A stretch of DNA of 50,477 bases. Origin: a virus. Taxonomy: Duplodnaviria > Heunggongvirae > Uroviricota > Caudoviricetes. Where the stretch lies: IMG/VR virus record IMGVR_UViG_2695420874_000004, one strand, 5' to 3'. The notes under the pieces were generated by a model, which ran no database searches, was not told where the DNA came from, and saw only the letters and a program-made list of their open reading frames with translations. How positions within the stretch are numbered: position 1 is the first letter of the stretch; every line of letters begins with the position of its first letter. The position numbers were made by a program, and so were the translations under genes. Shown in pieces: positions 14,910 through 42,523 of the stretch.

Positions 14910-14957
14910 GAGAGCGATCCTTGCACAACCGGGTGGAGTGATGTAATACAGAGCGTA

Positions 14958-14975
14958 TGTATGGAGAACCACACA
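14958..14975 (-). promoter_or_regulatory. Possible Ogr-type late promoter dyad upstream of V
   Basis: TGTATGGAGAACCACACA is a TGT-N12-ACA dyad; spacing to the V start is short, so the assignment is tentative. Confidence 0.3.
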
Positions 14976-15004
14976 AAAGAGAAACAATTTCTAAGGTATT
15001 TAAG

Positions 15005-15871
15005 ATGACACAAATCGCAATTTATGGATTTAATTTCACTAAAAAAATCACATTTGACGGTGGTGAGTTAACTCCTATTTTCAGTTCATGGAGTGAGTTA
15101 AAAAAAAATGGCTGGGCTAATGATAGGTACATCCTCACTGGTTTTTTCAAACCAAACTCGAATAACTACGCCACTCAACAGCAGCTTATTTTTGATTTAC
15201 AAGCAGTTCTTAGTTTTATTGAACAAAAAAATGTAATCATTTCAGGAGAACTTGAAAATGATGAAACCCCTTTCAATTTCAAACCATCTCTACCCAAAAA
15301 GCTTGACAAAAAAAGAGATAAGGGTGCGGGCATTATCATCATGGAAGATTATTTTGCACCAAACAGCCGAGAAAATTTTATTTGCTTAGCCATGGAAAAA
15401 CTAAATAGTAAAGCCATGCTAAAACAAGATGCCTTTAGAACATCATTTTTTAAATCAATGCTAGCTTTCCGCGACTCAATAAATTATATCGACGTCAGAT
15501 ATTATTTATTATTCTCGGCACTAGAAGCACTTTGCAGATTTATTAAAAATGACTACTCCCCTGCCAAAACACCACAAATAATTACTCAGGTTTTAAAAGA
15601 ATATGGTTTTAATGTCGAAAAAACAGGACATACATTAGCTCAAAGAAACATTATGCATTACTGCAAACTCCGTCACTCGCTGTTCCACAATGGTAAATAC
15701 ATTGCCTATCTTGATGAAAAAAACTCAGATGGCACAATTGAAATTCAAGATTACTCATCAAATTTGAATTTACTGGTGCCACTTGTACTAATGAAATTCA
15801 TAGGATTTGATGACAATTATATAAACTGGGACTCATGGATTGATAGGAATCCATTTATCAGTAAAAAGTAA
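15005..15871 (+). CDS. Hypothetical cargo protein (289 aa) in the S/V (P2 orf30) variable locus
   Basis: Clean AT-rich ORF on the opposite strand to the flanking tail genes, with AAGG ribosome-binding-like sequence upstream of the ATG at 15005; no motif I recognise. Confidence 0.7.
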   Translation: MTQIAIYGFNFTKKITFDGGELTPIFSSWSELKKNGWANDRYILTGFFKPNSNNYATQQQLIFDLQAVLSFIEQKNVIISGELENDETPFNFKPSLPKKLDKKRDKGAGIIIMEDYFAPNSRENFICLAMEKLNSKAMLKQDAFRTSFFKSMLAFRDSINYIDVRYYLLFSALEALCRFIKNDYSPAKTPQIITQVLKEYGFNVEKTGHTLAQRNIMHYCKLRHSLFHNGKYIAYLDEKNSDGTIEIQDYSSNLNLLVPLVLMKFIGFDDNYINWDSWIDRNPFISKK

Positions 15872-21847: not shown

Positions 21848-23614
21848 ATGAACACCACACTGACACCCGCAGATCTCGATCCCCGTCGGCAGGCCATGCT
21901 GCTGTACTTTCAGGGATACCGCGTAGCCCGCATTGCTGAAATGCTGGGCGAGAAAGTTGCAACCGTTCACAGCTGGAAAAAACGCGACAAGTGGGGTGAC
22001 TATGGGCCGCTGGATCAGATGCAGCTCACCACCGCCGCACGCTACTGCCAGCTCATTATGAAGGAGCACAAAGAAGGGAAAGATTTCAAAGAGATTGACC
22101 TGCTGGCGCGCCAGTCGGAGCGCCATGCGCGGATCGGCAAGTTTAACAATGGCGGCAACGAAGCCGACTTAAACCCTAACGTCGCCAACCGCAACAAAGG
22201 CCCGCGCCGTCAGCCGGAAAAGAACGTTTTCACCGATGAACAGATTGAGAAGCTGGAAGAAATCTTCCATTCCTCCATGTTCAACTACCAGCGCCACTGG
22301 TGGGAAGCCGGAAAAACCAACCGCATCCGCAACCTGCTGAAGTCACGCCAGATCGGCGCGACCTTCTATTTTGCCCGTGAAGCCCTGATTGACGCCCTGC
22401 TAACCGGGCGTAACCAGATTTTCCTTTCCGCCAGCAAGGCTCAGGCCCACGTCTTTAAGCAGTACATCATCGACTTCGCCAAAGAAGTGGAGGTGGAGCT
22501 GAAAGGCGATCCGATGGTGCTTCCTAACGGGGCCACGCTGTACTTCCTCGGCACCAATGCCCGCACGGCCCAGAGTTACCACGGCAACCTGTATCTGGAT
22601 GAATATTTCTGGATACCGAAATTCCAGGAGCTGCGCAAAGTGGCTTCCGGTATGGCTATTCACAAAAAATGGCGACAAACCTATTTTTCCACGCCATCCA
22701 GCCTGACCCACAGTGCTTATCCGTTCTGGTCCGGTGCGCTGTTCAACCGAGGGCGCAACAAAGCCGATAAGGTGGACATCGACCTGTCCCACAGCAATCT
22801 AGCCCCCGGCCTTCTGTGCGCAGACGGGCAGTACCGCCAGATAGTCACTGTGGAAGATGCGGTGCGCGGAGGCTGTAACCTGTTCGACCTCGACCAGTTG
22901 CGCATGGAGTACAGCCCGGACGAATACCAGAACCTGCTGATGTGTGAGTTCGTGGACGATCTCGCGTCCGTGTTCCCGCTCAGCGAGCTGCAGGCGTGCA
23001 TGGTGGACAGTTGGGAAGTCTGGACCGACTTTCATGCACTGGCGCTGCGCCCGTTTGGCTGGCGCGAAGTGTGGATCGGTTATGACCCGGCAAAAGGTAC
23101 GCAGAACGGCGACAGCGCCGGATGCGTGGTGGTGGCACCGCCAGCCGTGCCGGGCGGTAAGTTCCGCATTCTTGAGCGTCACCAGTGGCGCGGGATGGAC
23201 TTCCGCGCCCAGGCTGACGCCATCAAAAAACTGACTGAACAGTACAACGTGACCTACATCGGTATCGACTCGACAGGTGTCGGCCACGGGGTTTACGAGA
23301 ACGTGAAAGCGTTTTTTCCAGCCGTCCGGGAGTTTGTCTACAACCCCAACGTTAAAAACGCCCTGGTACTCAAGGCCTACGACATTATCAGCCACCGCCG
23401 TCTGGAGTTTGACGCCGGACACACCGACATAGCGCAGTCATTTATGGCAATCCGTCGCGCCACCACCGCCAGCGGCAACCGCCCGACCTATGAAGCCAGC
23501 CGCAGCGAAGAAGCCAGCCATGCAGATCTGGCCTGGGCAACAATGCACGCACTGTTTAACGAACCGCTGCAGGGCGAGTCCGCCAATACCAGCAATATTG
23601 TGGAGATTTTTTGA
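21848..23614 (+). CDS. P: Terminase large (ATPase) subunit gpP-like
   Basis: 588-aa ORF recognised as P2 P-like. Confidence 0.93.
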   Translation: MNTTLTPADLDPRRQAMLLYFQGYRVARIAEMLGEKVATVHSWKKRDKWGDYGPLDQMQLTTAARYCQLIMKEHKEGKDFKEIDLLARQSERHARIGKFNNGGNEADLNPNVANRNKGPRRQPEKNVFTDEQIEKLEEIFHSSMFNYQRHWWEAGKTNRIRNLLKSRQIGATFYFAREALIDALLTGRNQIFLSASKAQAHVFKQYIIDFAKEVEVELKGDPMVLPNGATLYFLGTNARTAQSYHGNLYLDEYFWIPKFQELRKVASGMAIHKKWRQTYFSTPSSLTHSAYPFWSGALFNRGRNKADKVDIDLSHSNLAPGLLCADGQYRQIVTVEDAVRGGCNLFDLDQLRMEYSPDEYQNLLMCEFVDDLASVFPLSELQACMVDSWEVWTDFHALALRPFGWREVWIGYDPAKGTQNGDSAGCVVVAPPAVPGGKFRILERHQWRGMDFRAQADAIKKLTEQYNVTYIGIDSTGVGHGVYENVKAFFPAVREFVYNPNVKNALVLKAYDIISHRRLEFDAGHTDIAQSFMAIRRATTASGNRPTYEASRSEEASHADLAWATMHALFNEPLQGESANTSNIVEIF

Positions 23615-24645
23615 TGGGAAAGAGTAAGAAGAACCGCGCTGCATCGACGAACCAGATCCAGCCTAAAAGCCAAACTTCAGCCGAAGCATTCAGCTTCGGT
23701 GATCCCGTTCCTGTTCTGGACCGCCGCGAACTGCTGGACTATGTGGAATGCGTACAAACAGATCGCTGGTATGAGCCGCCAGTAAGCTTTGACGGACTGG
23801 CGCGCACCTTCCGCGCTGCCGTGCATCACAGTTCCCCGATTGCAGTAAAGTGCAACATTCTGACTAGTACCTATATCCCTCATCCTCTGCTCAGCCAGCA
23901 AGCTTTTTCGCGTTTTGTGCAGGACTATCTGGTATTTGGCAACGCCTATCTGGAGAAACGCACGAACCGCTTCGGTGAAGTGATCGCCCTTGAACCTGCG
24001 CTGGCAAAATACACCCGACGCGGATTAGACCTGGATACCTACTGGTTTGTGCAATACGGTATGACAACCCAGCCGTATCAGTTCACGAAAGGCAGCATTT
24101 TTCATCTGATGGAACCGGATATTAATCAGGAGATCTACGGCCTGCCCGGTTATCTTTCTGCCATTCCGTCAGCCCTGCTCAACGAGTCCGCCACGCTGTT
24201 CCGTCGCAAGTATTACATTAACGGCAGTCATGCGGGCTTTATCATGTACATGACCGATGCCGCGCAAAACCAGGAGGATGTAAACAACCTCCGCAACGCA
24301 ATGAAAAGCGCCAAAGGACCAGGCAACTTCCGTAACCTGTTTATGTACTCGCCTAACGGCAAAAAGGACGGGCTTCAGATCATCCCGTTGTCAGAAGTCG
24401 CGGCGAAGGATGAGTTTCTGAACATCAAGAACGTGAGCCGGGATGACATGATGGCGGCGCATCGTGTGCCACCGCAAATGATGGGGATTATGCCTAATAA
24501 TGTCGGGGGGTTTGGGGATGTGGAGAAGGCGAGCCTGGTGTTTGTACGTAACGAGTTAATACCGTTACAAAAAAGAATGATGGAAATAAATAAATTGGTA
24601 AGTGAGAACATTGTTAAATTTGATAGTTATAAACTAGCTACTTAA
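23611..24645 (+). CDS. Q: Portal protein gpQ-like
   Basis: 344-aa ORF recognised as P2 Q-like, overlapping the P stop. Confidence 0.92.
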   Translation: MMGKSKKNRAASTNQIQPKSQTSAEAFSFGDPVPVLDRRELLDYVECVQTDRWYEPPVSFDGLARTFRAAVHHSSPIAVKCNILTSTYIPHPLLSQQAFSRFVQDYLVFGNAYLEKRTNRFGEVIALEPALAKYTRRGLDLDTYWFVQYGMTTQPYQFTKGSIFHLMEPDINQEIYGLPGYLSAIPSALLNESATLFRRKYYINGSHAGFIMYMTDAAQNQEDVNNLRNAMKSAKGPGNFRNLFMYSPNGKKDGLQIIPLSEVAAKDEFLNIKNVSRDDMMAAHRVPPQMMGIMPNNVGGFGDVEKASLVFVRNELIPLQKRMMEINKLVSENIVKFDSYKLAT

Positions 24646-24752
24646 CGTAATAACTAAATGAGGTTCTTTAACACAACTAAAAAAAGTTATTAATAGCCAG
24701 CAGTTTTTATGAATTTCTTCAGCGTGCAGATACACGCTGAAGATGCAAAAAA

Positions 24753-25442
24753 TCATATGAGACGACCGTCTGGACTTCTGTTACCTAAATGTAATTCACA
24801 GAGTATCCACCTAATCACATCAGGTCGAATTAACCCAGCTACAAAAACCGAATTCCAATTATTTTTACCTTTATGTTTTTCATCCAACAGCAACAACTCG
24901 CGAGTCAACAACTCATATACATCGCTATAAGTAGAAAGACTCTTATTCAGTCCTCTAATAACAAGCTCAGGATATAAGTAAAACGACTCCCATTGTTCAG
25001 ACAAATACCCCTTAATATTATTCTTGATAACAACATTATCAAGATGATACTTAACATTGTTATATTCTGGTGACATTGGGTCAATTATGATTTTTACATC
25101 AATTGTAGGTGTTCGCCCTAATTTAGAAAAATTAGCACATATTAATCTTTGTTTTAATATATTATCAAAATATGGATGCAGCATCCGATGGCCTGCAGAA
25201 TTAGCTATAGTAGTACTTTTGAAAGTATTACATTTGCAAGCAGGAACCAAATTCTTAGTGAATAAAGAAAATTCTGGATAGTTTTCCTTGGGTAAAACAT
25301 GATCCAAAGTCCCGCTATGCATTGAACCACACATTGGACATAGAGAGTTAGAATTAGCTGCTCTTATATCATCAATTATAGATAAACACTTTGCGGGATT
25401 GTTATAATAATATCTCAAAGCTTCAGCAATATTGTTACTCAA
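24753..25442 (-). CDS. HNH endonuclease-like protein (candidate Septu PtuB-like effector)
   Basis: CPMCGSMHSGTLDHVLPKENYPEF...NLVPACKCN has the C-x2-C / DH / N / C-x-C-N arrangement of HNH nucleases; AT-rich; no ATG at the 5' end (probable TTG start). Confidence 0.7.
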   Translation of the reverse strand: MSNNIAEALRYYYNNPAKCLSIIDDIRAANSNSLCPMCGSMHSGTLDHVLPKENYPEFSLFTKNLVPACKCNTFKSTTIANSAGHRMLHPYFDNILKQRLICANFSKLGRTPTIDVKIIIDPMSPEYNNVKYHLDNVVIKNNIKGYLSEQWESFYLYPELVIRGLNKSLSTYSDVYELLTRELLLLDEKHKGKNNWNSVFVAGLIRPDVIRWILCELHLGNRSPDGRLI

Positions 25443-25616
25443 TACGCCACAAGAATTGACATTAAGATACCCTTTATTCTTTATGTACGATCTATATGCA
25501 TTAAGTATAAATGTATCCTGTTCATTCAGAACAGAATGATGTTTTAATCTCTTATTTGCAGATAGTTTTTAAATGCAGAATAATCTTTAAAAACAGGTCT
25601 TTTTAATTTATTCATT

Positions 25617-27266
25617 TCAATTGCCCATTTCATTTCTCAACGCAGTTAATACATTAAGTGATAAGTCCTCGCTATATTTAGATTCAACATCATCCCAAGA
25701 CATATTCTTTGCAATTATATTATTTTTTACTTTATTTAAAATTTGAGTTGGTTCACTCTCACCGAAAACAAAATATGAGATATTTCCTATATTCGCCCCA
25801 AAAGTACTCAATCTCGGTTTTTCGCTAACAATTACCCCATCATCTCGTCTTCTGAGTATTGTCACTTGCTCCTTAAAAACCTCCCGAACAAGATAAACCG
25901 AATGCGTTGCTATGATAGCTGAAGAGCCTGTCTTTTCTAATAAATTATCAAGCAATGCCATAAATTTATTAATAAATGAAGGATGGAGATGTGTTTCTGG
26001 CTCATCTATTAATAGAAGAGTCCCATTCTCAATATACAAACAGACTTGTACACAAAACTTAATAAACGATATTTCCCCACTACTCAAAGGATAACATTTA
26101 TTTTCAATAAGCCTCAAAGGCTCGCCAGAGAGAATAATTTCAGAATATAATGATAGTCTGGATTCTTCGCCTCGAGAATTAAGCTCATTTAATTTAACAA
26201 ATGGTGAATTTTCACCGTTACATTTGATTACTAAATCGTTGTTACTATTTAGAACACTCAGTGCATCAACAAATATATTCCACCTTTGATTATAGCCGAT
26301 AGCGTCGTTACTCCTCGCTAGTTGCACTATTAAATCATTCAAGTTTAATTTGGATTTTGATTCACGATTTAAAGTCAATCTTTTGTACCATATCAATGAT
26401 TTTATTCTTTTATCGGTTGGAAATGAACACTTACTTTCATTTGTTGGAGAAAAAGCAATGAGCCTACTAATTTGAATTCGTTCTTCAATGCTCACACCGT
26501 TAGAATCAACTACAGCCACCAAATTATCCTTTCCTTTAATCGCAGCCAATGCGATTTCTCTAAGCGTTTGGCTTTTTCCTACACCATTCTCGCCTATAAT
26601 TATGGAAATTCTTTTTGGTAAATCATGCTCGTGATCAAAATTAAAAACATAAGATACATCTTCTTCATTAACTTTATTCGAATAGCTAATCTTGATGTGC
26701 TGTGATAAATTACCCAACTCCTCATATTGAATACCGGAAAGAACTGTTCCTGCATTTTTGAAAGTAAAATACGACTCAGACTCTCTAATGAAAGATTTAT
26801 TAAAGATATCAGAAGAGATTGCTTTTTTCCTCAAATTCTCTGCACTAGCGTCACTTTTCTTAGAAACAACATCATTAATGAAATTTAATATATATTTGGA
26901 TTCATTCACCCCAAAAAATCTTACTAGTCTTCGATAATTATTCATATCCTGAAGCATGACAAAATAATCATTAAACCCCTCATCCTTTAAATTAGATTCT
27001 TCCTTTTTCTTCACTCGCCTTATCAGTTCTGCTTTTCCATTTCGTTCCTCCTCTGAATTCAAAAAACCAATATAACCATTCAGTGAAATTATATCCTTAC
27101 ACTCTTTTTTATTAAAAATAGATATTTCGACTCTACTCAAATATCCAAAATCATTCCAATCGCTTCTTGATGGGACTATTTTTATATAATTACCAGAATC
27201 AGATATCTGTTGATTATTTGTAATTAAAAAATATAAACTATAATTTTTATTTTTCTTGACTAACAT
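25617..27266 (-). CDS. ABC/AAA15-type ATPase (candidate Septu PtuA-like) with about 200-aa N-terminal extension
   Basis: Walker A IIIGENGVGKSQTL, ABC-signature-like LSSGE, Walker B/D-loop LLLIDEPETHLHP; AT-rich. Confidence 0.8.
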   Translation of the reverse strand: MLVKKNKNYSLYFLITNNQQISDSGNYIKIVPSRSDWNDFGYLSRVEISIFNKKECKDIISLNGYIGFLNSEEERNGKAELIRRVKKKEESNLKDEGFNDYFVMLQDMNNYRRLVRFFGVNESKYILNFINDVVSKKSDASAENLRKKAISSDIFNKSFIRESESYFTFKNAGTVLSGIQYEELGNLSQHIKISYSNKVNEEDVSYVFNFDHEHDLPKRISIIIGENGVGKSQTLREIALAAIKGKDNLVAVVDSNGVSIEERIQISRLIAFSPTNESKCSFPTDKRIKSLIWYKRLTLNRESKSKLNLNDLIVQLARSNDAIGYNQRWNIFVDALSVLNSNNDLVIKCNGENSPFVKLNELNSRGEESRLSLYSEIILSGEPLRLIENKCYPLSSGEISFIKFCVQVCLYIENGTLLLIDEPETHLHPSFINKFMALLDNLLEKTGSSAIIATHSVYLVREVFKEQVTILRRRDDGVIVSEKPRLSTFGANIGNISYFVFGESEPTQILNKVKNNIIAKNMSWDDVESKYSEDLSLNVLTALRNEMGN

Positions 27267-27335
27267 TATTACCCTCTCACTTCATTAGTGATGATTTATT
27301 TTGGAATTATTTTACACACTTATACCTAGCGCGCA

Positions 27336-27354
27336 ATCGTATCCCCGCCACGCC
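27336..27354. other. Candidate cos site (cohesive-end core)
   Basis: Minus-strand GGCGTGGCGGGGATACGAT resembles the 19-nt P2/186 cohesive end as I remember it (first 13 nt identical to my recollection of 186); GC-rich patch in AT-rich surroundings. Identification from memory only. Confidence 0.35.
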
Positions 27355-27558
27355 TGCCCGCTTTATGTAGTGGTTTTCATGCACCTGCATGATCTACGCA
27401 AAAGCCCGCCAGTTCTGGCGGGCCTTAGCAAAAACGATCCTCAAACGATCATGCGATCTCATGCGGCATAGACATGCACTACAGAGCTAACGCCTCGCAA
27501 GGGCTCGTTGTTCAACCTTGCTGACGCCAGAAGCAAGTTCAGACGCCAGCAACGTTTC

Positions 27559-27792
27559 TTAATGCAGCCAGCTGTCGTCTTCCCACACCTTCTGCATAAT
27601 TTTCATCACTTGTTTTCTTTCTTCGTCCAGTTGCAATCCGGTAAGTTCCACACCGTTAGAGCTACCTTTGCGGATACGAATTACCGTTTTGGGATACAGA
27701 GGGCGCAGATTGCGGTAAAGCTCGGATTCAAGGGCGTCCAGGGTAGACTGGCTAATCTTCTGCTCTTTATCGATCATTATTTCAATGCGCAT
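27559..27792 (-). CDS. DinI-like protein
   Basis: 77 aa: MRIEIMIDKEQ...DALESELYRNL...WEDDSWLH parallels E. coli DinI (MRIEVTIAK...DALAGELSRRI...WESADDWF). Confidence 0.75.
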   Translation of the reverse strand: MRIEIMIDKEQKISQSTLDALESELYRNLRPLYPKTVIRIRKGSSNGVELTGLQLDEERKQVMKIMQKVWEDDSWLH

Positions 27793-34242: not shown

Positions 34243-35262
34243 ATGACCATAAGAAAACAGCCGAACGGAAAATGGTTGTGTGAGTGCTATCCCAATGGAC
34301 GCAATGGTAAGCGCGTGCGTAAGCAATTTGCTACCAAAGGCGAAGCTATTGCATTTGAAAGCTTCACAATGGAAGAAGTGAACAAAAAACCATGGCTGGG
34401 GGAAAAGGAAGATCGGCGACATTTATCAGAATTAATTGAGCTGTGGTATTCCCTGTATGGTCAAACACTCACAGACCCCAAGCGCCTCATGGCGAAACTT
34501 AGTATTATCTGTAATGGTCTAGGCGATCCCATCGCTTCAGAACTGACAGCCGGTGACTTTACGAAATACCGCGAAGCACGGTTAAAAGGTGAAGTACGAA
34601 ATGAAGATGGCACGCTTATGTCGCCCGTTAAGCCCCGCACGGTAAACCTTGAACAGCGCAATCTATCATCTGTTTTTGGTACACTGAAAAAGCTGGGCCA
34701 CTGGTCAGCCCCCAACCCGCTTGCCGGGCTGCCAACATTTAAAATTGCTGAGAGTGAATTGGCGTTCCTGACCCCGGAAGAAATTAAACGTCTGCTGGAT
34801 GCCTGTGCTGATTCTCAAAGCTCTAGTCTGCTGACGGTTGCAAAAATATGTCTGGCCACCGGCGCGAGATGGAGTGAAGCCGAAAACCTGCAGGGCCATC
34901 AATTATCAAAATACCGGATCACTTACACCAAAACTAAAGGCAAGAAAAACCGAACCGTACCGATATCTCAGGAGCTATATGAAGAACTCCCCAAAAACAG
35001 AGGGAAACTATTCACGCCCTGCAGAAAAGCTTTTGAGCGCGCAGTAAAACGAGCCGGTATAGACCTGCCTGAAGGCCAGTGCACACACGTGTTGCGCCAT
35101 ACATTCGCCAGTCACTTCATGATGAATGGCGGAAACATATTGGTACTACGCGATATTCTTGGTCACTCTGATATAAAAATGACGATGGTTTATGCTCATT
35201 TTTCGCCAGATCATTTAGAAGATGCTGTAACAAAAAATCCACTGGCTATGTTGGGATACTGA
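34243..35262 (+). CDS. int: Tyrosine integrase (P2/186 Int family)
   Basis: 339 aa with C-terminal HVLRHTFASHFMMNGG...LGHSDIKMTMVYAHF catalytic box (R...H-x-x-R...Y). Confidence 0.92.
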   Translation: MTIRKQPNGKWLCECYPNGRNGKRVRKQFATKGEAIAFESFTMEEVNKKPWLGEKEDRRHLSELIELWYSLYGQTLTDPKRLMAKLSIICNGLGDPIASELTAGDFTKYREARLKGEVRNEDGTLMSPVKPRTVNLEQRNLSSVFGTLKKLGHWSAPNPLAGLPTFKIAESELAFLTPEEIKRLLDACADSQSSSLLTVAKICLATGARWSEAENLQGHQLSKYRITYTKTKGKKNRTVPISQELYEELPKNRGKLFTPCRKAFERAVKRAGIDLPEGQCTHVLRHTFASHFMMNGGNILVLRDILGHSDIKMTMVYAHFSPDHLEDAVTKNPLAMLGY

Positions 35263-35264
35263 TA

Positions 35265-36296
35265 ATGGAAAAAAGCATTAGCACATTTATGTACCTATCC
35301 GTTTTATTAGGTTGTATATTCTTATTTATAAAATATCGACTTTATGTTCTCGATCATAGAAGCTTGTTCCAACAACCCTTGTTCTGGGCTGCAATAGGCC
35401 TACCTTTATTCACCAGCCTTTACTTTGGTTCTTTTGTCTGGATAGATAAAATACACTCTTTTAGTCTTACAAGTCACGGTTATGAGAGATTTTTAGATAT
35501 CTCGAAATTACCATTACTCATCCTTGCATCTGCAGTACCTTTAGTTTCAATAGTAAACAACCTACACAGAACCAAACAAACAGAAAAACAGATCTCAGAG
35601 GCAGAAAGGAAAAACAGGGTAGATTTATATTACAACCACATGAAATTTCATCTTGATTTATATAAAAAAATCGAAGGGAAAAGAATAGGCAGCTACTACC
35701 CGGTTCAGGAAGCTCAAGCTGAAGCAATCTACCAACATTTTATAAAACATCCACAAGAACTATATAGAAAAGCATACCCACAATCTACGCCTGATGATTC
35801 TCAACAATTAGATATTAATGAGCAATTTGTTATTGATTTACACAAATGTTGGGTAGAAATCAACGCAAGACTCAAGCAATTATCCGAGAGTGAAAATCAA
35901 ATACATCCTACAGAGGAACTTTGCACAACAAAGATGAGAATATTTGTAGGAGTTATGATTATTTATGAAAAAACTTGTAAACTGTTGTGTTTAGGTGGAT
36001 TTCATTATAAAAAGTCATTTGTAATAAATGATAGTTATAATAAATACCAAGTTTATTCACCATTTTATGATTTTGGCACTCTGTACGAATCACTGCAATC
36101 CTTAGAAGAGATAACCTACGCCTTCTTGGATACTTGCAGAAATGAAGTGGTAAACTTGTACTTCCCTATAGAAGATAAAATTTTGATATATGGTGAAGGG
36201 ATTCTAGAGAATTGGTTCAAGTATTCTCAGTTCTTGATCACTATAGCTTATCAACCCGCCAAGATGTCTCGCTTACCCCAGCTGAGACGCGATTGA
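35265..36296 (+). CDS. Hypothetical membrane-anchored cargo protein between int and attR
   Basis: 343-aa AT-rich ORF starting 2 bp after the int stop; two N-terminal hydrophobic helices (LSVLLGCIFLFI, LFWAAIGLPLFTSLYFGSFVW) and a large soluble C-terminal part. Confidence 0.65.
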   Translation: MEKSISTFMYLSVLLGCIFLFIKYRLYVLDHRSLFQQPLFWAAIGLPLFTSLYFGSFVWIDKIHSFSLTSHGYERFLDISKLPLLILASAVPLVSIVNNLHRTKQTEKQISEAERKNRVDLYYNHMKFHLDLYKKIEGKRIGSYYPVQEAQAEAIYQHFIKHPQELYRKAYPQSTPDDSQQLDINEQFVIDLHKCWVEINARLKQLSESENQIHPTEELCTTKMRIFVGVMIIYEKTCKLLCLGGFHYKKSFVINDSYNKYQVYSPFYDFGTLYESLQSLEEITYAFLDTCRNEVVNLYFPIEDKILIYGEGILENWFKYSQFLITIAYQPAKMSRLPQLRRD

Positions 36297-36412
36297 TGAT
36301 GGCGACATTTTGGCGGCAGAGCTTTAAAAACAGATAAAACTGTCAAACACCACATAACACTAACGTATTGTTTTTAAAAATAAATCATTATTTTTTCTGT
36401 AGTAAAAATGGT

Positions 36413-36457
36413 ATGTAGGAATTTCGGACGCGGGTTCAACTCCCGCCAGCTCCACCA
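36413..36457. repeat. attR of the P2-like prophage / attL of the downstream island: partial ssrA 3' end
   Basis: Exact 45-bp copy of 1016..1060. Confidence 0.75.
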
Positions 36458-36582
36458 ATTTTTGATATATTGAAGTTCAGTGAAGTCTATCAAGCCCGCA
36501 TGGAACCAGCCTTGCGGGCTTTTTTACGTCTATAGTAGTCTACCGAGAATTGCTAGAATCTACTCGTTATGGCACCCTTTTT

Positions 36583-36627
36583 GGGACCCAACACAAAGGG
36601 TCCAAAACATGAGGGTCCCAAACATGG
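36583..36627. repeat. Three tandem 15-bp imperfect repeats overlapping the island integrase start codon
   Basis: GGGACCCAACACAAA / GGGTCCAAAACATGA / GGGTCCCAAACATGG in direct succession; the third contains the int ATG. Confidence 0.4.
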
Positions 36628-37853
36628 CAAAAATCGCTAAGAAGCTCACTGACACTGAAATCAAAAGCACCAAACCTGCCGAGAAAGAGGTTAACCTTTT
36701 TGACGGCGATGGTTTGCTCCTGCGAATCGCCCCCTTAGCGAAGGGAGGAAAGAAAAATTGGTATTTCAGATATGCAGTGCCTGTGACCAAAAAGCGAACT
36801 AAGGTGAGCTTAGGAACCTATCCTCACCTTACACTTGCGAAGGCACGAGCTTTACGTGATGAGTACTTGTCGTTGCTTGCAAATGGTATAGACCCACAAG
36901 TTCATAACACCCACAAAGCCAATGCCCTTAAGGATGCAACGGAACATACATTTCAAGCAGTAGCCAAGAAGTGGCTTGATGAGAAAGTCAAAACGTCAGG
37001 CATCTCCCAGGATCATGCTAACGACATCTGGCGAAGCCTAGAGAGAAATATCTTTCCAACGTTGGGTGATACCCCCATTAAGGAGATTCGCCCTAAAATG
37101 CTTAAACAGCATTTAGACCCCATAGAAAAACGAGGTGTCCTTGAAACACTTCGCCGCGTCATATCCCGCCTGAATGAAATTTTCCGCTATGCAGCAACAG
37201 AAGAACTCATAGAATTCAATCCGGCTGACAACCTGGGGCAACGGTTCAGCAAGCCAAAAAAACAGAATATGCCAGCATTACCCCCTTCCGAACTCCCCCG
37301 CTTCCTGGTTGCTCTAAACAATGCTTCTATCCGTTTAGAAACAAGGCTACTGATTGAGTGGCAACTTCTCACATGGGTTCGCCCTGGTGAAGCTGTTCGC
37401 ACAAGATGGTCAGATATTGATATAGAAACCAGCATGTGGAACATCCCGGCGGAGTTTATGAAAATGAAGAAGCCTCACAAAGTTCCACTGAGCAAAGAAT
37501 CTTTGCGAGTCTTGGATTCAATGAAAGCCATCAGCGGGCATAGAGAGTGGGTTTTTCCCAGTATCAAAGCTCCACTCAATCACATGCATGAACAAACAGC
37601 TAATGCGGCTATAATCCGTATGGGCTTCGGAGGTGAGCTTGTAGCTCATGGTATGCGATCAATCGCTAGAACGGCGGCTGAGGAGTGTGGCAAGTTTAGA
37701 ACTGATGTCTTAGAAGCCGCCCTTGCCCACTCGAAAAAAGATGAAATAATTGCAGCCTACAATCGTGCAGAGTATCTCACAGAACGTGTGGTTCTCATGC
37801 AATGGTGGAGTGACTATGTTTCGTCTCAAAAATACAAAGTTATTGCCGCATAA
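36624..37853 (+). CDS. P4-type tyrosine integrase (CP4-57 IntA-like)
   Basis: N-terminal LTDTEIKSTKP...GDGLLLRIAP...WYFRY arm-binding region and blocks DIWRSLERNIFP, QKKNMPAL, AHGMRSIARTA, EAALAH, AYNRAEYL, MQWWSDYV shared with IntA as I recall it. Confidence 0.9.
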   Translation: MAKIAKKLTDTEIKSTKPAEKEVNLFDGDGLLLRIAPLAKGGKKNWYFRYAVPVTKKRTKVSLGTYPHLTLAKARALRDEYLSLLANGIDPQVHNTHKANALKDATEHTFQAVAKKWLDEKVKTSGISQDHANDIWRSLERNIFPTLGDTPIKEIRPKMLKQHLDPIEKRGVLETLRRVISRLNEIFRYAATEELIEFNPADNLGQRFSKPKKQNMPALPPSELPRFLVALNNASIRLETRLLIEWQLLTWVRPGEAVRTRWSDIDIETSMWNIPAEFMKMKKPHKVPLSKESLRVLDSMKAISGHREWVFPSIKAPLNHMHEQTANAAIIRMGFGGELVAHGMRSIARTAAEECGKFRTDVLEAALAHSKKDEIIAAYNRAEYLTERVVLMQWWSDYVSSQKYKVIAA

Positions 37854-38135
37854 CTCTTCCATGATGGGTTAACTATCTTGATTTATTTGAAGAATTAATG
37901 ATCACACCATTAACCTATGTGGACTAAGCATAGCCATTTACAAATGGGTACCTTGAGGCCACATAACGAAAGCTGTCGGTCATATCAGCTAAATAATTCA
38001 CATCTCTTCTCGATTATCATACACCTCGAAGAACTACCAAATTCGCTCTAATCAATGATAAAACAGTTGAATTCGGTTAAAATTTGATCAATTTTATCCT
38101 CTACATTGTATTGAATCATCCATGAGGTTTTGTGC

Positions 38136-39692
38136 ATGGCTAGCGGAAATGAAAAAAATCATAGAGTTAGGGTCGCACAGTACTTGAGGATGTCTACCGA
38201 CCATCAGCAATATTCTTTACATAATCAGTCTGAATATATCAAAGATTATGCTGAAAAGAACAATATGGAAATCGCTTATACCTACGATGATGCAGGTAAG
38301 AGCGGAGTCAGTATCGTAGGCAGGCATTCTTTGCAGCAGTTACTTAGCGATGTAGAACAAAAGAAAATAGATATACAGGCTGTATTATTTTATGATGTGA
38401 GCCGTTTTGGTCGTTTTCAAAATAGTGATGAAGCTGCATATTATTCCTTTCTATTTGAAAGAAATGGTGTAGATCTTATATATTGTTCCGAACCTATACC
38501 CACTAAAGATTTCCCTTTAGAGTCCTCTGTTATACTGAATATAAAAAGATCAAGTGCTGCATATCACAGCAGGAATCTATCTGAAAAGGTATTTATAGGG
38601 CAAGTAAATTTAATAAAGCTTGGTTATCATCAAGGCGGTATGGCTGGTTATGGGCTGAGACGTCTTTTAGTAGACGAAAATGGCATAGCTAAAGAAATAT
38701 TGAATTTCCGCAAAAGAAAGAGTATTCAAACAGATAGGGTAATATTAATTCCGGGACCAAAAAATGAAATAAAAATTGTAAATAGAATCTATGATCTCTT
38801 TATAGATAGTAACGTCCCAGAATTCATTATTGCTGAGAGATTAAATGAACAGAGCATACCTGCAGAAAATGGAACATCATGGACTCGTGCAAAAATACAT
38901 CAAATTTTGACAAATGAAAAATATATTGGAAACAACATATATAACAAAACCTCATCTAAACTAAAAAGTAAGCTTGTAAAAAACCCCAAACATGAATGGA
39001 TTAGATGTGACAAGGCATATAAACCAATTATTTCAAAGAAAAAATATAATAAAGCTCAAGAAATAATTCAGCTCCGATCCATTCATTTGACTAATGAAGA
39101 TCTATTAGAAAAGCTAAAAGAAAAATTAGAATCTAATGGAAAACTATCAGGCTTTATCATTGATGAAGATGATACAGGCCCTTCATCTTCTGTTTATAGA
39201 ACCCGATTTGGTGGTCTTTTAAGAGCATATACTTTGATTGGTTATAAGCCAGAACATGATTACAGCTATCTCCAAATAAATGAAGCACTAAGATCATTTT
39301 ACTCAGAGATAATTGAGGATTTTAAGGGCGAAATATTAAAAAGTAACTGTCATATAGACGAGTATAAATATTACCCAATGCTTTACATCAATGATGAGTT
39401 TTTAATTTCCGTCCTTGTTACTAAATGCATACATATGAAATCAGGTAAACTTAGATGGAAAGTCCGGTTTGATAACTCACAGAAAGCAGACATAACAATT
39501 GTTATACGAATGAATTCACAAAATATTTCACCTCTTGATTTTTATATCATACCAAAGATTGAAAACGAATATAGTAAAATGTGTATGATGGAAACAAACA
39601 ACATTCGGTTAGATCTCTATAGATTTGATAATCTTGATAAATTTCTACAAATTATTACTCGCATGAAAGTGAGGGAACTATATGCTGCCTGA
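38136..39692 (+). CDS. Large serine recombinase
   Basis: N-terminal resolvase-type catalytic region VAQYLRMSTDHQ...YDDAGKSG...R followed by a long recombinase extension; total about 518 aa. Confidence 0.8.
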   Translation: MASGNEKNHRVRVAQYLRMSTDHQQYSLHNQSEYIKDYAEKNNMEIAYTYDDAGKSGVSIVGRHSLQQLLSDVEQKKIDIQAVLFYDVSRFGRFQNSDEAAYYSFLFERNGVDLIYCSEPIPTKDFPLESSVILNIKRSSAAYHSRNLSEKVFIGQVNLIKLGYHQGGMAGYGLRRLLVDENGIAKEILNFRKRKSIQTDRVILIPGPKNEIKIVNRIYDLFIDSNVPEFIIAERLNEQSIPAENGTSWTRAKIHQILTNEKYIGNNIYNKTSSKLKSKLVKNPKHEWIRCDKAYKPIISKKKYNKAQEIIQLRSIHLTNEDLLEKLKEKLESNGKLSGFIIDEDDTGPSSSVYRTRFGGLLRAYTLIGYKPEHDYSYLQINEALRSFYSEIIEDFKGEILKSNCHIDEYKYYPMLYINDEFLISVLVTKCIHMKSGKLRWKVRFDNSQKADITIVIRMNSQNISPLDFYIIPKIENEYSKMCMMETNNIRLDLYRFDNLDKFLQIITRMKVRELYAA

Positions 39693-40578
39693 AAAAAATG
39701 AATTCCCAATAATTCAAATTGAGATTGCAAAAATAAAATTTCTTAACCCACGAACAAGAAATAAGGTAGTGCATGAAGAAATAAAGGAAAGCATAAAAAA
39801 AAGAGGATTAAGCAAGCCTATAAGCGTAAGAGCTATTGATGAAGACGATTTCAAATATGCTTTAATTTGTGGTCAAGGGAGAATAGAGGCTCTTGTTGCA
39901 TTAGGTGAAACTATTATTCCAGCAATTATAAGAGATGTATCAGAAGAAGATGCTTACGTTATGAGTTTAGTTGAAAACATTGCAAGGAGAAGACCACGTT
40001 CTAATGAGTTATTACAGGTGATTAAAGACATGAAAATCAGAGGACTTTCAGACTCCGAAATAAGTGAGATTACTGGATATTCATCGAACTGGGTGAGCAG
40101 TATTAATATGCTTCTTGATAAGGGAGAGCATAAACTTCTCTCAGCAGTCGAACGGGGTAATTTGCCTCTGTATCTCGCAGTGCAATTTGCAAGATGTGAA
40201 ACTGAGGAAGCACAAGATATTCTTACCGAAGCATATGATAAAAAATTAATAAAAAGTCGGGACATTATAAAGATAAAATACATTCTAAATCAAAGAACAG
40301 TTGGGAATAAAGGTGCAAAAGCAGCCGGATTTTATTATCACAAACCATCAAAAAGGATGACTGCAGAGGAGTTGATTGAGCTTTATGAAAATAGTATCGC
40401 TGAACATAAATCTGTTTATAACAACTCGAAATTTATAAAAACCAATCTACTAATAATAAATGAGATTTTTAACATCATAATGATGAATAAAAGCTTTCAA
40501 AATATACTTGAACAAGAGAATCTTTCAGAACTACCATCTCAGATATTAAACCCAGTAAACAAAGAGGTATCAAAATGA
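39682..40578 (+). CDS. ParB-like (ParB/Srx-fold) protein 1
   Basis: PISVR...YALICGQGRIEA...MSLVENIARR plus HTH-like GLSDSEISEITGYSSNWVSS match the ParB N-terminal domain pattern; overlaps the recombinase stop. Confidence 0.7.
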   Translation: MLPEKNEFPIIQIEIAKIKFLNPRTRNKVVHEEIKESIKKRGLSKPISVRAIDEDDFKYALICGQGRIEALVALGETIIPAIIRDVSEEDAYVMSLVENIARRRPRSNELLQVIKDMKIRGLSDSEISEITGYSSNWVSSINMLLDKGEHKLLSAVERGNLPLYLAVQFARCETEEAQDILTEAYDKKLIKSRDIIKIKYILNQRTVGNKGAKAAGFYYHKPSKRMTAEELIELYENSIAEHKSVYNNSKFIKTNLLIINEIFNIIMMNKSFQNILEQENLSELPSQILNPVNKEVSK

Positions 40579-41471
40579 TTCAGATACGTTTTGGCAAAAA
40601 TTTTATTTACCTGGAAACTAATAAGTTAATTCCATCTAAGGAATTATTAGAAAACGTAAAGCGAAGCCATAAATATCATCAAATAGTTACCTCTATCGAA
40701 AGCTTGGGTATTATTGAACCAATAATAGTATTCTATGACAAAGATAAAGATGTCACTAAGATACTTGATGGCCATTTAAGGGTTGAGGCTTTAAAAGACT
40801 TAGATATAGAAAAAGCTCCATGTATACTTTCGAGCATAGATGATGCTTTCACTCCTAACAAACAAGTGAATCATATAAATGTAGTTGAAGAACATAGAAT
40901 GATAATTAAGTCTCTGGCAAAAGTATTAATTGAAAAACTTAGTGCTGCTTTGGGCATATCTGTTGATGCCATAAAAGATAAAGCTAATGTGATGAACGGC
41001 ATAGATCCAAGTGTAATTGCGAAACTTTCTGATAAACCTATACCTAAGGCTACATTTGACGTTTTGAGGAAAATGAAGCCAATTCGTCAAATTGAAGCAG
41101 TCGGTACAATGATTAATTTTGATAATTATAGTAAAAAATTTGCAATGAGCATCTTGGATGCAACACCGTCATCGATGATAGTAAATAAAGGGAAAAACAC
41201 TCCCTATAAAAAGGACATAAAAAAAACCATACTTCGTCTGGAACAAGAAATGGCAACAACTTCGGAAGAAACGAAAAAACTTCAAACCGAGTATGGTTCA
41301 GATATGTTGAAATTCGTTATAATCCAGTCATATATTAATAAATTACTTGGCAACTCTAAAGTTCTTCATTGGTTCTTAGAAAACGAGGTTGATTATCTTA
41401 ATGAGTTAAAAAGAATTTCTAGAATAAATTCTTTGGATGATAAGACTCTTACTGAAAACAGCCAGTCATAG
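40575..41471 (+). CDS. ParB-like (ParB/Srx-fold) protein 2
   Basis: IIEPIIVF...ILDGHLRVEALKDL resembles the ParB N-terminal motif; overlaps the upstream stop (ATGA). Confidence 0.6.
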   Translation: MIQIRFGKNFIYLETNKLIPSKELLENVKRSHKYHQIVTSIESLGIIEPIIVFYDKDKDVTKILDGHLRVEALKDLDIEKAPCILSSIDDAFTPNKQVNHINVVEEHRMIIKSLAKVLIEKLSAALGISVDAIKDKANVMNGIDPSVIAKLSDKPIPKATFDVLRKMKPIRQIEAVGTMINFDNYSKKFAMSILDATPSSMIVNKGKNTPYKKDIKKTILRLEQEMATTSEETKKLQTEYGSDMLKFVIIQSYINKLLGNSKVLHWFLENEVDYLNELKRISRINSLDDKTLTENSQS

Positions 41472-42523
41472 TCATGGTTTTATATAGCCTAAATAAACCA
41501 AGAAGTATACTTACACAACGACCTTCACGCCGAAGAAGCTGTCAGATACGCCAGCAACCAAAGCATTGCGTTTAAGAGTCAGTCATTGATACGAAGGGAT
41601 AACTGCGTATCAGCAGCCGGACATTGAGTCGAATAAAGGCTGGTAGAGAGGGACAGTTCTGTGTCACCGGGAGATTAGTCAGAAACATCAGCGGCAGAAC
41701 AGATGAACCAGCAATTGGTAGTGTACAGAAAACTCTCCAGTATATAATTATTCAACTTAACACTAAAAAAAATCACATAGTTAATATCATAATTTTTCTT
41801 TGGTCTACTTATGCGAGAGATATTGTGGCTTCAACCTGGTATTAGGAGTCGTTTCAGATAAAAGATGTTCTTCGATTCGACTGGACTTGGTAATAGCAAT
41901 AAGTAATCGTGAATATTGAAGGACGAAAGGCTACTTCAAAACAAAGTAACCTTTCCAATATTCCCATATATGGGACAAGTGGCACATTAACTGCACATAG
42001 TGCAGGATACATATGACATAAAACTTTTTATTTATGGCATACATTAAGAATAACTTTTATTTTACGAATGTCAATAGGCTCTTGCTTAATACTTTTAAAA
42101 TAATTAATTGATTTTTTATTATAGCTTCGCTTGTACAAGCGAAGATCCTATTGTTCTTGAATGAATAATGCCAATTATAAAAGAAGCAAGGGCTAACCCT
42201 ACGAAGCCGCTGCGCTTGTTTCTTTGGGTTCCCCTTGCTTTTCTTCCCTTCGGTTAGAAAAGAAAATCCAGCCCAGTTTATCAACTATCTACAGTATTCC
42301 CACTAAAGAGTAACCGCCACTTTATACTCCGTTTGTGAGCTGAGGCTACTGTAGCATTTTTGGGTTTAAATTTTCTATCATTACCAGTTGTTGTGTCGGG
42401 ATAAAAATATTTTCTCGCATCCAACCATAAAGATATCAGATTTGCTATCATCATCACTTCACATAATGAAACTTTTTAAGTAGGCCTAAAATACAAGGCC
42501 TACTTAATAGCCGGAGATAGTTA

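What the first reader, a model, noticed from the sequence alone, without database searches (positions are those of the whole stretch)
24753..27266. Septu-like ATPase + HNH nuclease cassette inserted between the portal gene and the putative cos site
This is an AT-rich two-gene cassette on the strand opposite to P/Q. The first gene is an ABC/AAA15-type ATPase (Walker A GENGVGKSQ, LSSGE, LLLIDEPETHLHP); the second is an HNH nuclease (C-x2-C...DH...N...CxCN). That is the Septu (PtuA/PtuB) gene order, but the ATPase has an extra 200-aa N-terminal region not typical of PtuA as I remember it. The two ORFs are in the same reading frame, separated by two in-frame stops (25617..25619 and 25569..25571), and the HNH ORF has no ATG (probable TTG start at 25442). 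That could reflect a split ancestral fusion or an unusual initiation.
Basis: partly seen in the sequence, partly recalled or inferred. Interest (0 to 1): 0.65.

Follow-up and report, generated by a model that had tools for sequence, protein, structure and literature searches.

The report
Septu-like prophage defence cassette, nuclease frameshifted
This is an ordinary, already catalogued accessory gene pair (an ATPase plus an HNH nuclease, related to the Septu anti-phage system and to phage lambda's ea59-ea31 genes) in the usual cargo slot of a P2-like prophage, and the odd start of its nuclease gene comes from a one-base deletion.

Summary
An AT-rich (32% GC) two-gene cassette lies on the minus strand between the P2-type portal gene Q and the cos site (27336-27354).

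Both proteins are homologous over most of their length to phage lambda Ea59 and Ea31, and both hit PADLOC's candidate family PDC-M01. The 200-aa N-terminal region of the ATPase is a standard feature of this subfamily.

The pair is strictly syntenic: 77 of 80 species loci have the ATPase directly upstream of the nuclease gene. Only 3 of 5426 complete E. coli genomes carry the cassette. The exact proteins are system 155 in Table S5B of Rousset et al. 2022.

The "same frame, two stops, TTG start" pattern is an artefact. The real start is ATG 25615, overlapping the ATPase stop. An A6 tract is A5 here (25566-25570), which closes the normal 287-aa ORF after 23 codons. The split-fusion and unusual-initiation ideas are rejected.

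The nuclease gene is probably inactive in this copy, unless the deletion is an assembly error. Low novelty.

The parts
25617..27266 (-). ATPase gene (549 aa), PtuA-like / lambda Ea59-like ABC-type ATPase; appears intact
   Evidence: ORF. Pfam AAA_21 3.5e-16 and AAA_15 1.5e-8. PADLOC PDC-M01A 2.2e-55 and PtuA1 PDLC00282 9e-32 over residues 32-535. Foldseek top hits are PtuA. hhalign to lambda Ea59 gives 99.5% probability. Differs by 2 aa from the UPEC-245U allele.
26682..27266 (-). N-terminal ~195-aa family-specific domain of the ATPase: a beta-rich part followed by a helical part, with the conserved WNDFG motif
   Evidence: No Pfam hit. Found in 152 50%-identity clusters, almost always at the N-terminus of 530-580-aa proteins. 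Aligns with the lambda Ea59 N-terminus. AF2 pLDDT about 80.
26571..26594 (-). Walker A motif, GENGVGKS (K231)
   Evidence: Sequence; invariant in the 40-sequence alignment.
26073..26087 (-). ABC signature motif, LSSGE
   Evidence: Sequence; invariant L394-E398.
26001..26018 (-). Walker B motif, LLLIDE (D421, E422), followed by PETHLHP
   Evidence: Sequence; invariant.
24753..25615 (-). HNH nuclease gene (PtuB-like / lambda Ea31-like; 287 aa when intact), disrupted here by a 1-nt deletion. The 5' piece is 25544-25615 (23 codons plus stop); the 3' piece is open from 25568 to 24753.
25566..25570 (-). A5 homopolymer; it is A6 in intact alleles. Site of the frameshifting deletion.
25227..25340 (-). 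HNH core: C-x2-C ... D-H ... N ... C-x-C-N. In 287-aa numbering these are C93, C96, D105, H106, N122, C127, C129, N130.
   Evidence: Sequence. All are invariant in the 40-sequence alignment. The H-to-N spacing of 16 residues equals the H75/N91 spacing of Septu EcB88 PtuB (PMC13096335).
27336..27354 (-). cos core (cohesive-end sequence), of P2/186 type
   Evidence: 16 of 19 match to the 186-type cos, with none in 100 shuffles. Alignment with P2 cosR and the TGCGCGCT flank.
27400..27426 (-). Terminator-like GC hairpin plus U tract downstream of the DinI-like gene; it probably insulates the cassette from the early operon
   Evidence: RNA fold -27.6 kcal/mol, z = -5.1.
24717..24742 (.). 10-bp perfect inverted repeat between the convergent HNH and Q stop codons, with no U tract on either strand
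   Evidence: Sequence; folds with z about -4 on both strands.
23611..24645 (+). Portal gene Q (left border of the cargo slot)
   Evidence: ORF; annotated as phage portal protein in near-identical prophages.
27559..27792 (-). DinI-like gene (first conserved gene on the other side of cos)
   Evidence: Pfam DinI 6.6e-23; annotation in relatives.

Best explanation
The region is a horizontally acquired accessory cassette in the cos-proximal variable slot (between genes Q and A) of a P2-like prophage. It encodes a two-protein system of the Septu kind. More precisely, it belongs to the subfamily that contains phage lambda Ea59 and Ea31 and that PADLOC calls PDC-M01.

Shown here:
- Gene 1 is an intact ABC/SMC-type ATPase with a subfamily-specific N-terminal domain.
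- Gene 2 is a PtuB-fold HNH nuclease.
- The two genes are a conserved, translationally coupled pair. The nuclease start ATG overlaps the ATPase stop.
- In this window the nuclease gene carries a one-base deletion in an A6 tract, so its normal reading frame ends after 23 codons.

Inferred from work on Septu and retron-Eco7 PtuAB:
- The ATPase oligomerises and holds the nuclease through C-terminal helices.
- An infection cue, possibly read by the N-terminal domain, releases or activates the nuclease.
- The nuclease then cuts DNA or tRNA and aborts the infection.

Inferred for this copy: the effector is not made in full length, so the system is probably inactive, unless the deletion is an assembly error.
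For: Family:
- PADLOC gives PDC-M01A/B and PtuA1. Pfam gives AAA_21 and AAA_15.
- Foldseek's best PDB matches for the ATPase model are PtuA of Ec83, Ec78 and E. coli Septu, at 5e-8 to 2e-6.
- hhalign gives 98.5% probability over 250 columns to a PtuB that Rousset et al. labelled Septu.

Lambda link:
- tblastn and hhalign match Ea59 (96% coverage, 99.5% probability) and Ea31 (98% probability). Gene order is the same and the lambda genes overlap by 4 nt.
- Ea59 and Ea31 themselves hit PDC-M01A (4e-201), PtuA1 (5e-184) and PDC-M01B (6e-113).

Functional unit:
- In 77 of 80 species-representative loci the ATPase lies directly upstream on the same strand.
- One relative sits next to SIR2+HerA, and another sits in a Serratia P2-like prophage beside the portal gene.

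Cargo status:
- 32% GC against 54% for the backbone. Only 3 of 5426 genomes carry it, while 1219 share the cos flank.
- The same slot holds HIRAN plus a hypothetical gene, or retron Ec67, in other prophages.
- The exact proteins are system 155 (12 occurrences) in Table S5B of PMC9122126.

Frameshift.

Mechanistic precedent:
- PMC12819146 and PMC13096335.
- The title of Zhou et al. 1994 names a Streptomyces phage-resistance gene similar to the lambda ea59 endonuclease gene.
Against: - No member of this subfamily (PDC-M01, lambda ea59-ea31) has a defence phenotype documented in the papers I could read. Rousset et al. list this system but do not report testing it.
- Sequence similarity to the solved PtuA and PtuB is marginal: phmmer gives E 0.0017 for PtuA and no hit for PtuB. 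Foldseek for the nuclease was not significant (E 0.75).
- Pfam HNH models do not hit the nuclease.
- Generic ABC transporters score almost as well as PtuA in Foldseek.
- From my own knowledge: lambda ea59 and ea31 are early lytic genes rather than lysogen-expressed genes. A role other than prophage-encoded defence is therefore possible.
- I confirmed the A5 allele in only one assembly, so it may be an assembly error.
Confidence: 0.8

Rival explanations
1. The nuclease gene is intact in the real organism, and the missing A is a sequencing or assembly error in a homopolymer. The window would then carry a complete, functional cassette.
For: Apart from the single missing base, the gene has no other lesion. 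The reconstructed product differs from the intact allele at only 2 of 287 residues. I confirmed the A5 allele only in GCA_001277755.1, which is identical to the window. A second contig that carries the 229-aa product ends before the A tract.
Against: A6 is a short homopolymer and is rarely miscalled. RefSeq holds the truncated 229-aa product as a MULTISPECIES protein, WP_241555678.1. An independent read-set assembly (SRR33210429) carries a different one-base deletion 25 nt downstream that yields the same truncated ORF. Real disruptions in this 5' region therefore do seem to occur.
Confidence: 0.2
2. The frameshifted allele still yields an active nuclease. This could happen by initiation at TTG 25442 (giving a 229-aa protein that lacks 58 N-terminal residues) or by -1 ribosomal slippage on U-AAA-AAC, which would restore a 287-aa protein with K17N.
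For: The HNH core and the C-terminal helical domain lie downstream of TTG 25442. A -1 shift at AAA-AAC restores the frame exactly.
Against: - The lost N-terminal 58 residues include invariant or nearly invariant positions (N2, P7, D11, Y41, Y44, G49 in 287-aa numbering) and three confidently modelled helices.
- By eye, there is no good Shine-Dalgarno sequence before the TTG.
- The A tract is not conserved in relatives at 70-80% identity, which read AFKEMS or AFRLLS, and every relative has a single ORF. This argues against a programmed event.
- The heptamer is imperfect, and I found no stimulatory structure.
Confidence: 0.1
3. The cassette is not an anti-phage defence system. It would instead be a nuclease that serves the phage's own life cycle or host takeover (DNA processing, recombination, packaging, competition with plasmids), as was once proposed for the lambda-specified endonuclease.
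For: The closest classical relatives, lambda ea59 and ea31, are non-essential b-region genes used as insertion sites. [quoted passage not shown] 1982, as cited in PMC5241400). From my own memory, that enzyme is Ea59 plus Ea31. The cassette is co-directional with the early replication genes.
Against: - It is present in only 3 of about 1219 related prophages, and it is replaced by defence-type cargo such as retron Ec67 in the same slot.
- Relatives sit in chromosomal defence contexts, for example next to SIR2+HerA.
- A terminator-like hairpin separates it from the early operon.
- Both proteins have PtuA/PtuB folds.
- A Streptomyces ea59-like gene is titled as a phage-resistance gene.
Confidence: 0.15
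4. The two ORFs are the remains of an ancestral ATPase-HNH fusion protein that was split by nonsense mutations.
For: In this window the 3' part of the nuclease ORF happens to be in the same frame as the ATPase.
Confidence: 0.01
5. The ATPase is an NLR-like (STAND) sensor with a nuclease effector, as labelled in Table S5B of Rousset et al.
For: [quoted passage not shown] There are weak P-loop-only hits to NACHT (16.6 bits) and nSTAND5 (16.1 bits).
Against: Both hits fall below the Pfam cut-offs (26.7 and 34 bits) and cover only the Walker A region. The protein has the ABC signature LSSGE, a D-E Walker B motif and an H-loop. Its structural neighbours are PtuA and other ABC ATPases, not STAND proteins.
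Confidence: 0.03

Closest known systems
Phage lambda ea59-ea31 (b-region early genes; RefSeq 'AAA family ATPase' and 'HNH endonuclease')
   Same: The gene order is the same (ATPase, then HNH, with overlapping stop and start). Homology covers 96% of the ATPase, including the N-terminal domain, and about 200 columns of the nuclease. Both pairs fall in PADLOC PDC-M01.
   Different: Only about 24% identity for the ATPase and about 37% in the HNH core. The lambda pair lies in the b region next to att, not next to cos. By classical knowledge it is expressed as early lytic genes. No defence phenotype was found in the literature I searched.
Septu (PtuA/PtuB): E. coli Septu structures 8EE4/8EE7/8EEA, Septu EcB88, and the PtuAB module of retron-Eco7/Ec78 and Ec83
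   Same: An ABC-type ATPase followed by an HNH nuclease with a helical C-terminal domain. These are the best structural matches for both proteins. The catalytic His-to-Asn spacing is the same as in EcB88 PtuB.
   Different: The ATPase has an extra ~190-aa N-terminal domain: Walker A lysine is at 231, against K43 in EcB88. The nuclease has a longer N-terminal helical region (287 aa against about 200-243). Sequence similarity is marginal. The NCBIfam PtuA model scores 41.6 bits against a cut-off of 500.
PADLOC candidate system PDC-M01 (PADLOC-DB v2)
   Same: Both proteins hit PDC-M01A and PDC-M01B models best, and the genes are adjacent.
   Different: None structurally. PDC-M01 is a computational candidate. 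I found only census papers that mention it.
System 155 of the P2 gpA-gpQ hotspot catalogue (Rousset et al. 2022, Table S5B)
   Same: The proteins are essentially identical (MLVKKNKNYSLYF......MNKLKRPVFKDY...) and the locus is the same. It has 12 occurrences among 18,150 loci.
   Different: [quoted passage not shown] Their copy has an intact nuclease gene, while the window's copy is frameshifted.
P2 Old, PARIS AriA/AriB, Gabija GajA (ABC-type ATPase plus TOPRIM nuclease)
   Same: The ATPase is of the same AAA_15/AAA_21 class. P2 old occupies the same Q-A hotspot.
   Different: The effector here is an HNH protein on a separate polypeptide, and there is no TOPRIM domain. P2 old and tin lie on the other side of cos.

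Membership tests
Septu (PtuA/PtuB) | Two adjacent co-directional genes, with the ATPase first and the HNH nuclease second | tested here: met
   ORFs. Intact alleles have the nuclease ATG overlapping the ATPase stop. Synteny holds in 77 of 80 loci.
Septu (PtuA/PtuB) | PtuA is an ABC-type (AAA_15/AAA_21) ATPase with Walker A, signature, Walker B and H-loop motifs | tested here: met
   Motifs are present in the sequence and invariant in the alignment. Pfam AAA_21 and AAA_15 score above their cut-offs.
Septu (PtuA/PtuB) | The ATPase resembles solved PtuA more than it resembles other ATPases | tested here: inconclusive
   Foldseek's top 7 hits and most of the top 30 are PtuA chains (E 5e-8 to 2e-6). 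But ABC transporters follow closely and TM scores are about 0.3. phmmer against 8ee4 gives E 0.0017, over the C-terminal part only.
Septu (PtuA/PtuB) | Match to a Septu PtuA profile | tested here: met
   PADLOC PtuA1 PDLC00282 gives E 9e-32 over residues 32-535 (profile positions 22-500 of 520). This same model matches lambda Ea59 at 5e-184.
Retron-type PtuA (NCBIfam NF041760 equivalog) | Score above the curated cut-off (500 bits) | tested here: not met
   41.6 bits, over the C-terminal 120 residues only.
Septu (PtuA/PtuB) | PtuB is an HNH (beta-beta-alpha-Me) nuclease with catalytic His and Asn and a helical C-terminal domain | tested here: met
   [not shown]
Septu (PtuA/PtuB) | ATPase core starts at the N-terminus, as in the solved stand-alone PtuA | tested here: not met
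   The Walker A lysine is K231, after a conserved ~190-aa domain. It is K43 in Septu EcB88.
Septu (PtuA/PtuB) | PtuA oligomer binds PtuB; nuclease activity is regulated by ATP; anti-phage phenotype | not testable with these tools
   This needs biochemistry and plaque assays. The precedents are in PMC12819146 and PMC13096335.
PADLOC PDC-M01 | Adjacent genes that match the PDC-M01A and PDC-M01B models | tested here: met
   PDC-M01A 2.2e-55 and PDC-M01B 8.7e-32 (8.4e-33 with the upstream extension).
Lambda Ea59/Ea31 pair | Homology of both proteins over most of their length, with the same gene order | tested here: met
P2 gpA-gpQ hotspot cargo (Rousset et al. 2022) | Lies between Q and A next to cos, varies among related prophages, and has atypical base composition | tested here: met
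   Listed as system 155.
OLD / PARIS / Gabija class | TOPRIM (or DUF4435) nuclease domain joined to, or partnered with, the ATPase | tested here: not met
   There is no TOPRIM hit. The partner is an HNH protein.
STAND / NLR-like NTPase | NACHT or NB-ARC domain above the family threshold | tested here: not met
   NACHT scores 16.6 bits (cut-off 26.7) and nSTAND5 scores 16.1 bits (cut-off 34), over the P-loop only. The ABC signature motif is present.
Programmed frameshift / phase-variable tract | The slippery tract and the two-frame arrangement are conserved among relatives | tested here: not met
   All relatives have a single 287-288-aa ORF. The A6 tract is absent from homologues at 70-80% identity.

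The most novel reading that the evidence does not exclude
The Ea59/Ea31-type pair (this cassette, PADLOC PDC-M01, lambda ea59-ea31) may be a mechanistically distinct branch of Septu. In this reading, the conserved N-terminal domain of the ATPase is the infection sensor, for example for single-stranded DNA or replication intermediates. That would match the ssDNA-dependent lambda-specified endonuclease described in 1982. It would give the long-unexplained lambda b-region genes ea59 and ea31 a role in inter-phage warfare. It would also read the recurrent 5' frameshifts in the nuclease gene as selection against a toxic effector.
Probability: 0.3. Interest if true: 0.5.

Novelty: already known. Interest (0 to 1): 0.22.

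Why it matters
It matters little for novelty. The cassette fits the established picture of P2-like prophages carrying swappable anti-phage cargo next to cos, and these very proteins are already in a published catalogue and in PADLOC and PHROG models.

Three points are useful:
- The apparent anomaly (no ATG, in-frame stops) is a one-base deletion. It should be annotated as a disrupted gene, not as a 229-aa HNH protein as RefSeq does (WP_241555678.1).
- The published 'NLR-like' label for this system should read 'Septu-like ABC ATPase plus PtuB-like HNH'.
- The clear homology to lambda ea59-ea31 offers a tractable classical model for testing what this untested Septu branch does.

Tried and rejected
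- Pfam and NCBIfam scans of the nuclease gave no HNH hit even at E up to 10.
- phmmer and hmmsearch of the nuclease, and of a 40-sequence profile, against PDB sequences gave only noise plus a generic HNH at E 0.22.
- Two Septu-labelled PtuB sequences from Rousset et al. do not themselves match the solved PtuB significantly. A transitive sequence link was therefore not possible.
- hhalign of the ATPase profile against a short P4-hotspot PtuA aligned only the C-terminal half.
- The N-terminal domain has no Pfam family.
- The promoter scan found no more sites than in shuffles (15 against 14.6). It did not report the DinI-proximal hairpin that folding later confirmed. By eye I see a candidate promoter, TTGCGC-16 nt-TAAAAT, at 27309-27336, but it is unverified.
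- A literature search for PDC-M01 returned only census papers. No paper in the library mentions both ea59 and Septu. Li et al. 2024 and Benchimol et al. 1982 are not held.
- Rejected readings: split fusion, programmed frameshift, phase variation, and NLR-like identity (see rival explanations and membership tests).
Full report
**1. Observation**

The window is a P2-like prophage. The terminase gene P (21848-23614, +) and the portal gene Q (23611-24645, +) are followed on the opposite strand by two ORFs:
- 25617-27266: 549 aa, ATG start.
- 24753-25442: 229 aa, first possible start TTG.

The cassette is 31.9% GC, against 54% for P/Q and 53% for the replication gene A.

The ATPase carries GENGVGKS (Walker A, K231), LSSGE and LLLIDEPETHLHP. 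The second ORF carries CPMCG...LDH...NLVPACKCN.

A 19-nt cos core sits at 27336-27354. It matches the 186-type cohesive end at 16 of 19 positions, with no match in 100 shuffles, and it is followed by the same TGCGCGCT flank as in P2. The cassette therefore lies between Q and cos. In P2 itself that interval is 167 bp without genes, and old and tin lie on the other side of cos.

**2. The odd start of the nuclease gene is a one-base deletion**

Aligned to these, the window lacks one A of an A6 run, so it has A5 at 25566-25570. The consequences are:
- The true start (ATG 25615) now opens only a 23-codon ORF, MNKLKRPVFKDYSAFKNYLQIRD*.
- The rest of the gene is shifted into the frame of the ATPase.

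Re-reading one base at the tract restores a 287-aa protein that differs from the intact allele only at K17N and G32E. There are no further lesions.

Homologues across Proteobacteria are uniformly 287-288 aa. They begin MNKLP.P.FDD, and the first 58 residues include invariant or nearly invariant positions. A TTG-initiated product would lose these.

The A tract is not conserved in relatives at 70-80% identity. Programmed slippage or phase variation is therefore unlikely.

The window is identical to contig CYCG01000010.1 of GCA_001277755.1. An independent read-set assembly (SRR33210429) has the A6 run intact but a different one-base deletion 25 nt downstream, which gives the same truncated ORF. 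RefSeq carries the 229-aa product as WP_241555678.1.

I cannot exclude an assembly error for the window itself. I give that about 0.2.

**3. What the two proteins are**

*ATPase.*
- Pfam gives AAA_21 and AAA_15 above their cut-offs.
- PADLOC gives PDC-M01A (2.2e-55) and the PtuA1 model PDLC00282 (9e-32, residues 32-535).
- An AlphaFold model (pLDDT 79) has PtuA chains of retron Ec83, retron Ec78 and E. coli Septu as its best PDB matches, at E 5e-8 to 2e-6. Generic ABC ATPases follow closely.

*Nuclease.*
- No Pfam or NCBIfam hit.
- PADLOC gives PDC-M01B at about 1e-32.
- A profile of the family aligns over 250 columns (98.5% probability) with a PtuB that Rousset et al. labelled Septu.
- The zinc-binding cysteines and the catalytic D-H...N are invariant. 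The His-to-Asn spacing equals that of the essential H75 and N91 of Septu EcB88 PtuB.

**4. The N-terminal extension is a subfamily hallmark**

Homologues of the ATPase cover 94-100% of its length. The first 195 residues alone retrieve 152 clusters at 50% identity. Almost all place this domain at the N-terminus of 530-580-aa proteins.

Among species-representative genomes, 77 of 80 loci with the nuclease have the ATPase directly upstream on the same strand. In 67 of them the alignment reaches the first 60 residues.

The domain has no Pfam family. Its role is unknown. By analogy with the N-terminal extension of Ec78 PtuA, which binds the reverse transcriptase and the ncRNA (PMC12819146), I infer a sensing or regulatory role.

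**5. Link to phage lambda**

tblastn against phage genomes finds lambda Ea59, covering residues 21-549 of the ATPase (E 3e-13), and lambda Ea31 for the HNH core (E 3e-8). Profile comparisons give 99.5% and 98% probability.

In lambda the genes have the same order and overlap by 4 nt.

Ea59 hits PADLOC PDC-M01A at 4e-201 and the PtuA1 model PDLC00282 at 5e-184. Ea31 hits PDC-M01B at 6e-113.

This cassette, lambda ea59-ea31 and PDC-M01 therefore form one subfamily of the Septu kind.

No paper in the searchable library mentions ea59 together with Septu. One paper cites Benchimol et al. 1982 for a lambda-specified single-stranded-DNA-dependent endonuclease. My recollection that this enzyme consists of Ea59 and Ea31 could not be checked here. 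A 1994 paper title describes a Streptomyces lividans phage-resistance gene similar to the lambda ea59 endonuclease gene.

**6. Context**

The slot is the known P2 hotspot between gpA and gpQ (PMC9122126).
- In other E. coli prophages that share the same cos flank, the space between Q and cos holds a HIRAN-domain gene plus a hypothetical gene, or retron Ec67.
- Only 3 of 5426 complete genomes have this cassette, while 1219 share the flank.
[quoted passage not shown] The main text does not report testing it.
- That label is not supported. The NACHT and STAND hits are sub-threshold and cover only the P-loop, while the ABC signature motif is present.
- Distant relatives lie next to SIR2+HerA in Cupriavidus, and beside the portal gene of a Serratia P2-like prophage.
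- PHROGs already holds both families, as phrog_8066 and phrog_18937, with function unknown.

A strong hairpin plus U tract after the DinI-like gene (27400-27426, z = -5) probably insulates the cassette from the early operon. The promoter was not identified.

**7. Mechanism**

Shown: a conserved, translationally coupled pair made of an ABC ATPase and a PtuB-fold HNH nuclease, carried as variable prophage cargo.

Inferred from the Septu and retron-Eco7 literature:
- The ATPase oligomer sequesters the nuclease through C-terminal helices.
- An infection cue releases or activates the nuclease.
- The nuclease nicks DNA and/or causes tRNA-Tyr cleavage, and this aborts the infection.

In this window the effector gene is interrupted, so the system is probably inactive.

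**8. Verdict**

The Septu-like interpretation is supported. The split-fusion and unusual-initiation ideas are rejected. The system is already catalogued and detectable with existing models, so novelty and interest are low. The modest added value is threefold: the frameshift diagnosis, a corrected family label, and the explicit homology to lambda ea59-ea31.

Noticed in passing
window 698-1060 (+): A tmRNA (ssrA) gene with tag peptide ANDENYALAA lies at the left edge of the window. The P2-like prophage genes begin just after it, so the prophage seems to sit next to ssrA.
   Followed up: no
window 14957-15871 (+): An AT-rich (about 34% GC) 304-aa ORF lies on the strand opposite to the surrounding tail and baseplate genes. 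It has no Pfam or PADLOC hit. It looks like a second moron or cargo slot inside the late region.
   Followed up: partly
window 35265-37853: Right after the P2-type integrase (34243-35262) come a 343-aa ORF with no Pfam hit (35265-36296) and a second tyrosine integrase of P4 type (36480-37853). This suggests a second integrated element in tandem.
   Followed up: partly
window 38130-45543: An AT-rich island (30-36% GC) holds a large serine recombinase (38130-39692). It also holds a convergent pair: a RelA/SpoT-domain protein (42524-43429, -) and a 704-aa protein with an N-terminal NACHT-associated inactive restriction endonuclease domain (43429-45543, -). No PADLOC model hits either protein. This may be an uncharacterised defence-type pair.
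   Followed up: partly
locus L009 (Logan SRR33210429 contig), aligned to window 25540-25550: An independent assembly carries a different one-base deletion (GATTAAAAC to GATTAAAC) in the 5' part of the same nuclease gene. It gives the same truncated 229-aa ORF, so disruption of this gene's 5' region may be recurrent.
   Followed up: partly
[not shown]
   Followed up: no
window 24717-24742: A perfect 10-bp inverted repeat with a 6-nt loop lies between the convergent stop codons of Q and the nuclease gene. It has no U tract on either strand, so it is not a canonical intrinsic terminator.
   Followed up: partly
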